DNA of 25,137 nucleotides from an uncultured virus (IMG/VR IMGVR_UViG_3300032291_001634) (lineage: Duplodnaviria; Heunggongvirae; Uroviricota; Caudoviricetes): IMG/VR virus record IMGVR_UViG_3300032291_001634, one strand, 5' to 3'. The notes under the pieces are model-generated. The model made no database searches. It was not told the DNA's origin and saw nothing but the letters and a program-made list of their open reading frames with translations. Positions 19,775-21,048 of this stretch are shown one piece after another (position 1 is the stretch's first letter; every line of letters begins with the position of its first letter). The translations under genes were made by a program, and so were the position numbers.

Positions 19775-19798
19775 GTTGTTTTCCTATCTGTTGTTGAG

Positions 19799-19870
19799 CT
19801 GACCTTCCTGGACTCGAACCAGGAACCTTAGAGTTAACAGCTCTCTGCTCTGCCATTGAGCTAAAGGTCA
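19799..19870 (-). tRNA. tRNA-Asn (GTT), CCA not encoded
   Basis: TGACCTT/AAGGTCA acceptor, GCTC/GAGC D-arm, CT-GTT-AA loop, CCTGG-TTCGAGT-CCAGG T-arm, G discriminator. Confidence 0.93.
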
Positions 19871-19930
19871 TAGTGCCAGATGCGCTCTGGCGGGCGGTCT
19901 ACGTTTTCTTGCGATGGCGAAACACACCAG

Positions 19931-20013
19931 TGGACTGCGAGGAATCGCGCCTCGGCAACTCCATACGGAGCACCTCTCGCTACTTTATCCATGGTAGTCA
20001 AGTAGCACAGTCC
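19931..20013 (-). ncRNA. Non-canonical tRNA-like RNA
   Basis: GGACTG/CAGTCC-A acceptor-like stem, CGAGG-CGCGATT-CCTCG T-like arm, two internal hairpins, no normal D or anticodon arm. Confidence 0.55.
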
Positions 20014-20111
20014 TATAGCCCCTTAATCGTTTGTGATGAAGAAGGGTGACTATTGCTGGAATCGCCCGAAGGTTATTCCGATACTCCTTCAGCAAAGGCT
20101 GACGAGCTATA
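20014..20111 (-). ncRNA. Putative structured RNA with C(UUCG)G tetraloop
   Basis: TATAGCTC/GGGCTATA closing stem; GAAGG/CCTTC; GGAAT/ATTCC; CC-TTCG-GG. Confidence 0.45.
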
Positions 20112-20151
20112 CCAGTTTTTCTGCTAAGCATTAGGCACTGACAAGCCTACG

Positions 20152-20222
20152 CTGATTCTCTAGGCGTCGAACCTAGGCTAACGGTGTTGGAGACCGCTGT
20201 GCTACCGTAACACTTAGAACCA
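20152..20222 (-). tRNA. tRNA-Trp (CCA), CCA end not encoded
   Basis: TGGTTCT/AGAATCA acceptor, GTGT/GCAC D-arm, GCGGT-CT-CCA-AC-ACCGT, CTAGG-TTCGACG-CCTAG, G discriminator. Confidence 0.9.
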
Positions 20223-20226
20223 AAGC

Positions 20227-20298
20227 GTAACACATTTCAAACAGTTCTTCGAAGTTATCGCTGGGTCTTCCCTGCAATAAACTGCCTTAGTGCGTTAC
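20227..20298 (-). ncRNA. Putative structured RNA (three-way junction)
   Basis: GTAACGCA/TGTGTTAC, GGCAGTT/AACTGTT, TATTGC/GCGATA, GGG-AAGA-CCC; G.U pairs favour the minus strand. Confidence 0.45.
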
Positions 20299-20373
20299 TT
20301 GATAGCGATAGGCATTGGAGGGCTACTGTTGCCCAGTGCTCTGGGTGACTCCATAGTGTGCGTCATCTATCCG

Positions 20374-20453
20374 TGGACCAGCACAGAATCGAACTGTGGT
20401 CTTACAGATTCCTACTGGAGGCTTTGTTCTGCAATCGACACCATTTCTAGCCC
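20374..20453 (-). ncRNA. Minimal tmRNA tRNA-like domain (TLD-only RNA, 80 nt)
   Basis: GGGCTAG/CTGGTCC-A with G3.U70; stemless D-loop AAATGGTGTCGA; helix TTGCAGA/TCTGTAA; GAC linker; CACAG-TTCGATT-CTGTG. Confidence 0.75.
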
Positions 20454-20458
20454 TAACA

Positions 20459-20488
20459 ACCTGGGTACCGTTTCCTGCGTACCCAGGT
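20459..20488 (-). other. 10-bp hairpin between hsp20 and the RNA operon (terminator for hsp20 and/or leader hairpin)
   Basis: ACCTGGGTAC-N10-GTACCCAGGT followed by TGTT. Confidence 0.6.
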
Positions 20489-20500
20489 ATTTATGTAATT

Positions 20501-20528
20501 AGTATACACCAAAATTACTTAATGTCAA
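20501..20528 (-). promoter_or_regulatory. Near-consensus promoter for the RNA operon
   Basis: TTGACA-N16-TATACT overlapping the end of hsp20. Confidence 0.65.
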
Positions 20529-21048
20529 TTACCTTAGGCTTCTTTTCTTCTGGTAGTTCTTTATTAAAAGTAATTACTAACATACCGTTGTCTAGTTCAG
20601 CACCAGCTACTACCCAGTATTCAGCAATAGCAAGAGATAAAGTAAAGTCTCTAGTAGCAATACCTTGATATAGTATTTCTCCCTTAGCCTTACTCTCCTT
20701 GTTACCTTGAATAGTAATAGTAGAATCTTTAACAGTAATAGTAATTTCTTTTTTACTAAACCCAGCAACAGCTACATTGAGTAGGTTAGTCTCATCATCC
20801 AATTGAACAATGTCATATGGAGGATAAGTAGGTTTATTGTTAGTGATTTCTTTGAGTTGGTCAAGAAGTGGAGACCAGCCAATAGATAGGCGGTCTAGAC
20901 GGGGAAACAGGTCAGCAATAGTAGCTACCTTTTTAGTTTCTGTTTGCCACTTCTTGTAGCTATCCTCATGGATTTTAGGACCCCAAGGTTCATAGGGATT
21001 CTTCTTGTGTTTATCCCATGGGTCATTTGAATATGGTTGTATATGCAT
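20515..21048 (-). CDS. Hsp20 / alpha-crystallin small heat-shock protein (IbpA-like)
   Basis: TYPPYDI, VAVAGF, YQGIATRDF, AELDNGMLVI, ELPEEKKPKVIDIK. Confidence 0.95.
   Translation of the reverse strand: MHIQPYSNDPWDKHKKNPYEPWGPKIHEDSYKKWQTETKKVATIADLFPRLDRLSIGWSPLLDQLKEITNNKPTYPPYDIVQLDDETNLLNVAVAGFSKKEITITVKDSTITIQGNKESKAKGEILYQGIATRDFTLSLAIAEYWVVAGAELDNGMLVITFNKELPEEKKPKVIDIK

What the first reader, a model, noticed from the sequence alone, without database searches (positions are those of the whole stretch)
20374..20453. Phage-encoded mini-tmRNA: intact tRNA-like domain with no mRNA-like domain
Seen: minus-strand GGGCUAG AAAUGGUGUCGA UUGCAGA [19 nt] UCUGUAA GAC CACAG UUCGAUU CUGUG CUGGUCC A. 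Established: G3.U70 plus A73 are the AlaRS identity elements. A stemless D-loop of form A..GG...CGA, helix 2a and a 3-nt GAC linker are hallmarks of the tmRNA TLD and its SmpB-binding surface (E. coli: GGGGCUG AUUCUGGAUUCGA...GAC GCGGG UUCAACU CCCGC CAGCUCC A). Here the pseudoknot and tag-ORF region is replaced by 19 nt. It is the first RNA after a near-consensus promoter. Inference: an alanylatable SmpB/EF-Tu ligand that cannot tag proteins. It could be a sponge or dominant-negative inhibitor of trans-translation, a tag-less rescue RNA, or a decoy for tmRNA/tRNA-cleaving defence toxins. I know tag-less tmRNAs only from some mitochondria, not from phages.
Basis: partly seen in the sequence, partly recalled or inferred. 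Interest (0 to 1): 0.9.

Follow-up and report, generated by a model that had tools for sequence, protein, structure and literature searches.

The report
Phage tag-less mini-tmRNA gene
This phage carries a real 80-base gene that copies only the alanine-accepting, tRNA-like end of the bacterial ribosome-rescue RNA (tmRNA); the type is already known from mycobacteriophage DS6A, but turns out to be widespread and unannotated in phages.

Summary
Window 20453..20374 (minus strand) is an 80-nt tRNA-shaped RNA. It has a 7-bp acceptor stem with G3.U70 and A73, a stemless D-loop, a 7-bp helix capped by a small hairpin in place of an anticodon arm, a GAC linker and a T arm.

It is not chance. A covariance model built from it finds full-length copies in 12 of 29 syntenic sources. 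Across 94 distinct variants, 98.8% of cells pair and 19 of 22 pairs change on both sides (0 of 500 shuffles).

No relative carries a full tmRNA at this place. ARAGORN and Rfam call it neither tRNA nor tmRNA.

My model hits the published 'TLD only' tmRNA of Mycobacterium phage DS6A (58 bits) and an unannotated copy in Streptomyces phage BRock (45 bits). Rfam's own tmRNA model scores the BRock copy above its cut-off (64.5 bits). So the element is a new member of a known but little-studied kind, not a first.

Most likely it uses host SmpB, AlaRS and EF-Tu to compete with host tmRNA and block tagging. That function is inferred from the literature, not tested here. G3.U70 (92 of 94) and A73 (94 of 94) are nearly invariant, which suggests charging matters.

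This scan reported the same family before on other DNA (e1-6070413, e1-6075687, e1-6077507).

The parts
20374..20453 (-). Mini-tmRNA (TLD-only tmRNA), from mature 5' G1 (20453) to discriminator A73 (20374). CCA is not encoded; the next bases are CGG.
   Evidence: Sequence. Model R1 scores 112.8 bits. Same family as the DS6A TLD-only tmRNA.
20447..20453 (-). Acceptor stem, 5' strand GGGCUAG. It pairs with 20375-20381 (CUGGUCC) and includes G3.U70.
   Evidence: In A4, pairs 1-3 are nearly invariant (G-C 92/94, G-C 94/94, G.U 92/94), while pairs 4-7 covary freely.
20435..20446 (-). Stemless D-loop AAAUGGUGUCGA.
   Evidence: It aligns with the 5' end of a full phage tmRNA (L076) and with the DS6A and BRock copies; GG..U.GA is kept. 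Its invariance among the 91 pattern-found members follows from the search pattern itself.
20402..20434 (-). Helix-2-like arm. It comprises the 7-bp helix UUGCAGA/UCUGUAA (20428-20434 with 20402-20408) and a 19-nt insert (20409-20427). The insert has an A-rich internal loop and the 3-bp hairpin CCU-CCAGU-AGG.
   Evidence: All 7 helix pairs and 2 of 3 hairpin pairs change on both sides. The AAAG-CCN..NGG-A module is also present in 7 of 7 cultured actinophage copies.
20399..20401 (-). GAC linker between the helix and the T arm.
   Evidence: It aligns to GAC in the beta_tmRNA and tmRNA_permuted models and to GGAC of the full tmRNA L076.
20382..20398 (-). T arm: CACAG-UUCGAUU-CUGUG.
   Evidence: All 5 pairs change on both sides.
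20501..20528 (-). Sigma-70-type promoter TTGACA-16 nt-TATACT, overlapping the end of hsp20.
   Evidence: 11 of 12 matches. The same module is kept in relatives. This is a consensus match only; transcription was not shown.
20459..20488 (-). Leader hairpin, with stem ACCUGGGUAC/GUACCCAGGU, between the promoter and the RNA.
   Evidence: Read. Related hairpins follow hsp20 in relatives whether or not the RNA is present. Its role (5' stabiliser, processing site or weak terminator) is inferred.
20151..20222 (-). tRNA-Trp (CCA), same strand, 151 nt downstream. Probably in the same transcript.
   Evidence: ARAGORN; Rfam tRNA 46.9 bits.
19798..19870 (-). tRNA-Asn (GUU), same strand, last gene of the small RNA island.
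   Evidence: ARAGORN; Rfam tRNA 64.6 bits.
20515..21048 (-). hsp20 gene immediately upstream. It serves as the synteny anchor.
   Evidence: PHROG 432, Hsp20, E 5e-32. 28 related loci were found with it.

Best explanation
Identity (confidence about 0.9). The element is a phage gene for a 'TLD-only' tmRNA. It keeps the tRNA-like domain of tmRNA: an acceptor stem with the alanine identity set G1-C72, G2-C71, G3.U70 and A73; a stemless D-loop; a GAC linker; and a T arm. The two halves are joined by a short helix-2 stub capped with a small conserved hairpin. It has no pseudoknots and no tag reading frame. It belongs to the same family as the DS6A TLD-only tmRNA.

Mechanism (confidence about 0.55; inferred, not shown here). 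The RNA is transcribed from the promoter at the end of hsp20, together with tRNA-Trp and tRNA-Asn. Host tRNA-processing enzymes cut it out and the host CCA-adding enzyme completes it. It then binds host SmpB and is charged by host AlaRS. It competes with host tmRNA for SmpB, EF-Tu and stalled ribosomes. Because it has no resume codon, tagging of stalled nascent chains for proteolysis is blocked. It therefore acts as a dominant-negative inhibitor of trans-translation during infection.
For: Structure and reality:
- The helices and motifs are present as described.
- Covariation is strong: 19 of 22 pairs compensate, 98.8% of cells pair, and 0 of 500 shuffles reach this.
- The 94 distinct variants came from IMG/VR, metagenome and genome contigs plus two GenBank phage records (DS6A and BRock).

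Family link:
- R1, built only from hsp20-phage copies, hits DS6A JN698994.1:28474-28561 at 58.2 bits and BRock KX925554.1:97139-97224 at 44.8 bits. A genuine BRock tRNA-Ala scores only 22.3 bits.
- Rfam tmRNA RF00023 matches the BRock copy end to end at 64.5 bits (cut-off 47) and the DS6A copy at 43.2 bits.
- On the window copy itself, the best hits within the tRNA clan (Rfam clan CL00001) and its relatives are tmRNA families, not tRNA.

Alanine identity:
- G3.U70 is present in 92 of 94, A73 in 94 of 94 and G2-C71 in 94 of 94, while pairs 4-7 vary freely. None of these positions was in the search pattern.
- 7 of 7 cultured actinophage copies, found without the pattern, have G3.U70, A73 and C74.

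No partner of its own:
- SmpB (PF01668) was found in 0 of 5 phage records, three of them complete.
- RF-1/ArfB and Pth were found in 0 of 5.
- Neighbouring genes differ between phage groups. The RNA must therefore use host factors.

Function, from papers (passages read):
[quoted passage not shown] - Peptidyl transfer to a TLD-only tmRNA is described in vitro (PMC3895274, citing Shimizu and Ueda 2006).
Against: - The window copy is not called by ARAGORN or by Rfam at gathering thresholds. RF00023 found nothing at the element in three complete relatives, even at E <= 1. tmRNA ancestry therefore rests on a chain through the DS6A and BRock homologues and on shared motifs.
- No expression, processing, CCA addition, charging or SmpB binding was shown. 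The public runs gave only contigs, and the single contig over the element looks like DNA of a relative.
- Two gut-phage variants have A3-U70. The cited experiment found inhibition without charging. So near-universal G3.U70 does not prove that charging is required.
- I could not read Mao et al. 2009 itself.
- 17 of 29 syntenic sources lack the RNA, so it is dispensable cargo.
- The conserved insert hairpin has no role in this model.
Confidence: 0.55

Rival explanations
1. Tag-less rescue RNA. The charged RNA, with host SmpB and EF-Tu, enters stalled ribosomes and accepts the nascent chain on its alanine. Host factors (ArfA/RF2, ArfB or Pth) then release the chain untagged. Ribosomes are freed during infection, and products of cleaved phage or host mRNAs are not sent to proteolysis. 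Repeated rounds might add several alanines.
For: The alanine identity set is nearly invariant (G3.U70 in 92 of 94, A73 in 94 of 94) while the rest of the acceptor stem varies. A pure SmpB sponge would not obviously require this. TLD-only tmRNA accepts peptidyl transfer in vitro (PMC3895274 passage). CDS-less tmRNAs of mitochondria and plastids are thought to help with incomplete mRNAs (PMC11915505 passage).
Against: No phage-encoded release factor or hydrolase was found (0 of 5 genomes for PF00472 and for PF01195). The cited experiment reports inhibition of tmRNA, also by a non-chargeable form. Nothing here shows entry into ribosomes.
Confidence: 0.22
2. Decoy, or donor for a non-ribosomal process. 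The RNA would soak up a host defence enzyme that attacks tRNA or tmRNA acceptor ends or elbows. Alternatively it would supply alanine to an aminoacyl-tRNA-dependent transferase.
For: It travels with phage tRNA genes, on the same strand and within 400 nt, in 20 of 59 viral loci. Phage tRNA islands are a usual place for counter-defence RNAs (established knowledge, no call). The conserved insert hairpin has no role in the SmpB model.
Against: No conserved neighbouring transferase or nuclease partner was found. No known defence targets the tmRNA TLD, as far as I recall (not searched specifically). The tmRNA-specific D-loop and GAC linker point to SmpB rather than to a general tRNA-binding enzyme.
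Confidence: 0.1
3. A degenerate tRNA (tRNA-Ala-like pseudogene), or a mere RNase P/Z punctuation signal for the operon.
For: It sits where tRNA genes sit, sometimes 2-5 nt from a tRNA. Real tRNA-Ala genes give weak hits to the model (15.9-22.3 bits).
Against: No tRNA call by ARAGORN or by Rfam, even at E <= 10. There is no anticodon arm. A pseudogene would not show 19 of 22 compensating pairs and invariant loops over 94 variants. In 39 of 59 viral loci there is no tRNA within 400 nt to punctuate.
Confidence: 0.04

Closest known systems
'TLD only' / 'standard, no CDS' tmRNA of Mycobacterium phage DS6A (tmRNA Website tmID 11587; PMC4131195, PMC11915505; Mao et al. 2009 as cited there)
   Same: Same length class and the same architecture, element by element: an acceptor stem with G3.U70 and A73 followed by C, a stemless D-loop, a 7-bp helix, an A-rich loop with a 3-bp hairpin, a 3-nt linker and a T arm. 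It matches my model over its full length at 58.2 bits. It is likewise phage-borne, has no phage SmpB (no RF-1/ArfB or Pth either), and is unannotated in GenBank.
   Different: About half the bases differ. The D-loop has one extra base, the linker is CAC instead of GAC, and G+C is 67% against 49%. The host and phage type differ: DS6A is a temperate mycobacteriophage, while this is a 93-kb freshwater phage whose capsid is 60% identical to that of Streptomyces phage BRock.
Canonical bacterial tmRNA (SsrA, Rfam RF00023)
   Same: It has a tRNA-like domain with the alanine identity set, a D-loop without a stem, a GAC linker before the T arm and a helix 2 leaving the domain. It aligns with the ends of a full-length phage tmRNA (L076). 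Homologues score with RF00023.
   Different: It has no pseudoknots, no resume codon and no tag ORF. About 19 nt stand where a full tmRNA has about 300 (L076 is 361 nt). It cannot act as a messenger. The window copy does not reach Rfam thresholds.
CDS-less tmRNAs of jakobid mitochondria and Mallomonadaceae plastids (PMC11915505 passage)
   Same: They are reduced to little more than the tRNA-like domain and have no tag frame.
   Different: The organelle forms co-occur with an SmpB of their own compartment and are vertically inherited host components. The mitochondrial ones are permuted, two-piece genes (recalled, not tested). No Rfam mt-tmRNA hit was listed for the window.
tRNA-Ala
   Same: A G3.U70/A73 acceptor stem and a T arm. 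It lies in tRNA islands and probably uses the same processing enzymes.
   Different: It has no D stem, no anticodon arm and no anticodon. ARAGORN and Rfam tRNA models do not call it. A true phage tRNA-Ala scores 22.3 bits on the family model, against 45-114 bits for members.
Laboratory TLD-only tmRNA constructs (Shimizu and Ueda 2006, as cited in PMC3895274)
   Same: The same concept: a tRNA-like domain alone which, with SmpB and EF-Tu, can accept the nascent peptide in vitro.
   Different: Those are engineered truncations of E. coli tmRNA. This is a natural, evolving gene family with a conserved extra hairpin.

Membership tests
tmRNA (SsrA) in the strict sense | tRNA-like domain: 7-bp acceptor stem with G3.U70 and A73, and a T arm with a GUUCRA-type loop | tested here: met
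   Sequence. Kept across the family: G3.U70 in 92 of 94 and A73 in 94 of 94.
tmRNA (SsrA) in the strict sense | D-loop without a D stem, and a GAC-type linker before the T arm (the surface that published structures assign to SmpB; recalled) | tested here: met
   It aligns with the full tmRNA L076 and with homologues that RF00023 matches. GAC plus the T arm aligns to beta_tmRNA and tmRNA_permuted.
tmRNA (SsrA) in the strict sense | mRNA-like domain: resume codon, tag reading frame and stop codon | tested here: not met
   Only 19 nt lie between the helix strands. The possible GCC...UAA frame is not kept: the third base before the GAC linker (the U of UAA) is T in 54 and C in 37 of 94, and loop length varies between 4 and 5 nt.
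tmRNA (SsrA) in the strict sense | Pseudoknots (PK1-PK4) | tested here: not met
   There is no room for them. The insert forms a single 3-bp hairpin.
tmRNA (SsrA) in the strict sense | Score at or above the Rfam tmRNA gathering threshold | tested here: not met
   Window: no hit at gathering, best 12.5-13.1 bits. Relatives G002-G004: none at the element. Homologues: BRock 64.5 bits, which passes; DS6A 43.2 bits, which is below 47.
tmRNA (SsrA) in the strict sense | Alanylation by AlaRS, and binding of SmpB and EF-Tu | not testable with these tools
   These need biochemistry. Only the sequence determinants are present.
TLD-only ('standard, no CDS') tmRNA, DS6A type | Little more than the tmRNA tRNA-like domain, in standard (unpermuted) order, without a tag CDS | tested here: met
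   Definition from passages of PMC4131195 and PMC11915505.
TLD-only ('standard, no CDS') tmRNA, DS6A type | Homology to the DS6A sequence | tested here: met
   The family model built without DS6A matches DS6A over its full length at 58.2 bits, E 3e-16 on the whole genome.
TLD-only ('standard, no CDS') tmRNA, DS6A type | Inhibits host tmRNA when expressed | not testable with these tools
   Reported for a similar molecule in papers I saw only through citing passages. Mao et al. 2009 is not held.
tRNA | Cloverleaf with D stem, anticodon arm and anticodon | tested here: not met
   ARAGORN makes no call. Rfam tRNA gives no hit at E <= 10. No 7-nt anticodon loop is present.
Two-piece (permuted) tmRNA | Gene order: acceptor piece first, then coding piece | tested here: not met
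   Both halves of the acceptor stem flank the element in standard order. The tmRNA_permuted hit covers only the 3' half, at 13.1 bits against a cut-off of 47.

The most novel reading that the evidence does not exclude
The phage mini-tmRNAs are not mere SmpB sponges. They are charged RNAs that act on the ribosome, and selection keeps the full AlaRS identity set because alanine transfer is the point. On this reading, phages run a tag-less (or alanine-only, possibly iterative) rescue pathway that frees ribosomes without marking the products for proteolysis. The conserved A-rich loop and CCN..NGG hairpin in the insert would be a new functional module, for example one that positions the RNA or recruits a release factor in place of the missing message.
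Probability: 0.25. Interest if true: 0.7.

Novelty: new member of a known kind. Interest (0 to 1): 0.45.

Why it matters
Trans-translation is the main ribosome-rescue and quality-control route of bacteria. A natural, compact inhibitor or re-director of it, carried by many unrelated phages, bears on three things: how phages take over translation, what SmpB and AlaRS actually need to recognise, and how this pathway, which is also a drug target, can be blocked.

The practical gains are these:
- ARAGORN and Rfam miss this form. Phage surveys that rely on ARAGORN (PMC9004378) would therefore not have counted it.
- The latest tmRNA database lists only 9 'standard, no CDS' sequences (PMC11915505). 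Against that, one narrow pattern found 91 distinct variants here.
- The gene is present but unannotated in culturable, harmless systems, namely 8 Streptomyces phages, where its function can be tested directly.

Tried and rejected
- **Tag ORF in the insert.** The window reads GCC UCC AGU AGG AAU CUG UAA. I rejected this because the frame is broken by 1-nt loop-length changes, the UAA is CAA in 37 of 94 variants, and the substitutions follow base pairing rather than codons.
- **attP fragment of a host ssrA gene.** Rejected. Both halves of the domain are present and covary, and the three complete relatives have direct terminal repeats.
- **Full tmRNA in relatives, or a deletion artefact.** ARAGORN finds no tmRNA in 28 loci. 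RF00023 finds none in three complete genomes.
- **The 17-mer scan.** 12 of the 26 loci from contigs not already held were chance matches without the fold. One of them, in contig G005, happens to lie in a phage contig that carries a genuine full tmRNA elsewhere. That tmRNA was used only for comparison.
- **The genome-contig scan.** 8 of 10 matches were chance.
- **blastn against cultured phages.** The 1-kb region found only tRNA-Asn, and the 80-nt element found nothing.
- **Public RNA runs.** Three runs held only small shares, all kept as contigs. One 151-nt contig covers 20373-20461 exactly but continues into the flank of a relative, and its run is only guessed to be RNA. This is no evidence of transcription or of RNA ends.
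- **Conserved protein partner.** SmpB, RF-1/ArfB and Pth are absent from the five phage records searched for each (G001-G003, G004 and G005 for SmpB; G002-G004, BRock and DS6A for RF-1/ArfB and Pth). The neighbours fall into unrelated modules: replication, capsid, methylase and tail.
- **Supplement of PMC11915505.** A search for the list of no-CDS sequences found no occurrence in the one file held, so I cannot say whether any of the nine is of this subfamily.
- **Mao et al. 2009** could not be read.
- **Literature searches** for a described widespread phage mini-tmRNA family found none in the held library.

Full report
**1. The observation**

In order, the parts are:
- acceptor strand GGGCUAG
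- a 12-nt stemless loop AAAUGGUGUCGA
- helix strand UUGCAGA
- a 19-nt insert
- helix strand UCUGUAA
- linker GAC
- T arm CACAG-UUCGAUU-CUGUG
- acceptor strand CUGGUCC
- discriminator A

G3 pairs with U70. CCA is not encoded; the next bases are CGG.

A promoter-like site, TTGACA-16 nt-TATACT (11 of 12 matches), lies at 20528..20501 and overlaps the stop codon of hsp20. A 10-bp hairpin (20488..20459) sits between it and the RNA. tRNA-Trp (20222..20151) and tRNA-Asn (19870..19798) follow on the same strand.

The window is phage DNA. It encodes a major head protein, portal, large terminase, Hsp20 and tail fibre proteins. Its head protein is 60% identical to that of Streptomyces phage BRock.

**2. 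Is it more than chance?**

The single-sequence fold is unremarkable (z = -1.5). The case for reality is comparative.

Using Hsp20 as an anchor, I fetched 28 related viral loci with 60-100% amino-acid identity. A covariance model (R1) built from nine copies finds full-length matches of 107-114 bits in 12 of 29 sources, counting the window. These copies show compensatory changes in all four helices and keep G3.U70.

The other 17 sources have something else at that place: nothing, a tRNA-Trp, a tRNA-Thr, another RNA or an ORF. None has a full tmRNA. ARAGORN finds no tmRNA in 28 loci, and RF00023 finds none in three complete genomes with terminal repeats. The element is therefore optional cargo of a variable RNA island. 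It is not a deletion artefact.

**3. Breadth of the family**

- A 17-letter pattern found 14 further copies in viral contigs outside the hsp20 synteny. One of them lies inside a seven-tRNA array.
- A gapped pattern (D-loop, 20-50 nt, linker plus T loop) found 59 stretches in viral contigs, of which 58 fold. These included contigs whose record names carry 'human gut metagenome' or 'fermentation metagenome'. It found 10 in 185,579 species genomes, of which only 2 fold, both on 4-kb MAG contigs.
- After removing duplicates there are 116 distinct matches. 91 of them have at least 6 acceptor pairs and at least 4 T-stem pairs. Most of the 25 rejects look like chance matches.

On 94 distinct rows (the 91, plus L252, DS6A and BRock), 98.8% of cells pair, against 37-51% with slid partners. 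19 of 22 pairs change on both sides, and 0 of 500 shuffles reach the observed values.

Two caveats apply. The alignment was fitted to the model. The invariance of the D-loop, of AGAC and of the T loop among the 91 follows from the search pattern.

The following positions were not in the pattern, so their conservation is informative:
- G1-C72 in 92 of 94
- G2-C71 in 94 of 94
- G3.U70 in 92 of 94 (the other two are A-U)
- A73 in 94 of 94
- C74 in 68 of 94
- an encoded CCA in 19 of 91
- an A-rich internal loop and a CC..GG hairpin in the insert

**4. What it is**

ARAGORN and Rfam do not call it as tRNA or as tmRNA. When only the element is searched, the best hits are tmRNA families on its 3' half, not tRNA: beta_tmRNA at 12.5 bits (E 0.017) and tmRNA_permuted at 13.1 bits.

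The decisive link came from the literature and from cultured phages.
- PMC4131195 lists 'Mycobacterium phage DS6A (TLD only)'. It says that a similar molecule, chargeable or not, strongly inhibits tmRNA, perhaps by titrating SmpB (Mao et al. 2009). I read these passages.
- PMC11915505 counts 9 'standard, no CDS' sequences. It repeats that the DS6A form inhibits the endogenous tmRNA in E. coli.
- Model R1, built without DS6A, matches DS6A at 28474-28561 over its full length at 58.2 bits, with the same parts in the same order.
- R1 also matches an unannotated stretch of Streptomyces phage BRock between tRNA-Cys and tRNA-Val at 44.8 bits. BRock's genuine tRNA-Ala scores 22.3 bits.
- Rfam's tmRNA model matches the BRock copy end to end at 64.5 bits, above its cut-off of 47. 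It matches the DS6A copy at 43.2 bits.
- blastn with the BRock copy finds it in 8 Streptomyces phages (10 records). Nine of the ten records have nothing annotated there and one has a 'hypothetical protein'.
- All 7 cultured copies that I aligned have G3.U70, A73, C74 and the AAAG-CCN..NGG-A insert module.

The ends of the window copy also align with the ends of a full 361-nt phage tmRNA, L076.

The window element is therefore a member of the DS6A-type TLD-only tmRNA family. Its descent from tmRNA is supported through homologues and shared motifs, not by a direct Rfam hit.

**5. What it is not**

- It is not a messenger. The possible six-codon frame in the insert is not kept.
- It is not a tRNA, because it has no anticodon arm.
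- It is not an attP remnant, because both halves covary.
- It has no phage-encoded partner. SmpB, RF-1/ArfB and Pth are absent from the five phage records searched for each (three complete relatives among them; BRock and DS6A for RF-1/ArfB and Pth). Its neighbours belong to unrelated modules in different phage groups.
- A same-strand tRNA lies within 400 nt in 20 of 59 viral loci. In the other 39 the RNA stands alone.

**6. How it most likely works**

Shown here: the fold, its conservation, the alanine identity set, the family link to DS6A, and the lack of a phage SmpB.

Inferred: the RNA is transcribed with the tRNAs, processed by host RNase P and 3' enzymes, and completed with CCA by the host enzyme. 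It then binds host SmpB and is charged by AlaRS. It competes with host tmRNA, so that stalled chains are not tagged.

The inhibition itself is taken from citing passages. That a TLD-only RNA can accept the peptide in vitro is taken from PMC3895274.

The near-invariance of the identity set suggests that charging matters in nature. This fits less well with a pure sponge, and it keeps the tag-less-rescue rival alive. Two natural A3-U70 variants, and the reported activity of a non-chargeable form, argue the other way.

Expression could not be tested. The public runs gave contigs only.

**7. Novelty and verdict**

It is a new member of a known, little-studied kind.

What is under-appreciated is its spread. 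One narrow pattern found 91 distinct variants, against 9 catalogued 'no CDS' sequences. It is also invisible to ARAGORN and Rfam, and unannotated in culturable Streptomyces phages. I found no paper in the held library that describes this spread. Supplements of the tmRNA database paper that I could not search usefully may list some members.

Earlier agents of this scan reached the same reading on other DNA. I re-derived the DS6A link independently with my own model.

Noticed in passing
window 19929-20017 (-), between tRNA-Trp and tRNA-Asn: This non-coding stretch is conserved (72-88% identity) in three other phage loci (L008, L085, L246). It folds into a multibranch structure closed by GGACUG/CAGUCC (MFE -34.9 kcal/mol, z = -1.7).
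   Followed up: partly
window 20223-20373 (-), the spacer between the mini-tmRNA and tRNA-Trp: This 151-nt spacer has no counterpart in any other fetched locus except the near-identical contig (L001/L060/L126). Relatives carry a different sequence at this place.
   Followed up: partly
window 20459-20528 (-) and the equivalent places in L009, L010, L016, L018, L020-L022 and L028: The module 'end of hsp20, then a consensus promoter, then a strong hairpin' is kept in relatives, while the cargo behind it varies. The cargo can be the mini-tmRNA, tRNAs, another RNA or an ORF with its own Shine-Dalgarno sequence.
   Followed up: partly
KX925554.1:97143-97220 (BRock); also LuckySocke, GiJojo, Tomas, Naboo, Riptide, Alone3 and pSt2308: Eight cultured Streptomyces phages carry an unannotated mini-tmRNA. 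In the six I looked at (BRock and five relatives) it lies within the phage's tRNA cluster; in the five relatives the nearest upstream tRNA is tRNA-Val, and in BRock it lies between tRNA-Cys and tRNA-Val. In GiJojo a 'hypothetical protein' is annotated over it.
   Followed up: yes
L076:1501-1861 (virus record G005, 117-kb contig): This unrelated phage contig, pulled in by a chance 17-mer match, carries a full-length one-piece tmRNA (RF00023, 160 bits) with an encoded CCA.
   Followed up: partly
L074:2527-2606: On a 4.6-kb contig binned to an archaeal MAG (probably phage DNA), an apparent tRNA-Ala (anticodon loop CUUGCAA) lies about 110 nt downstream of a mini-tmRNA copy.
   Followed up: no
L116/L056 and L097/L042 (viral contigs of the L084-L127 neighbour group; a near-identical contig is named 'human gut metagenome'): These two variants have A3-U70 instead of G3.U70 and a weaker helix 2 with a C-A mismatch. 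They may be natural non-chargeable forms.
   Followed up: partly
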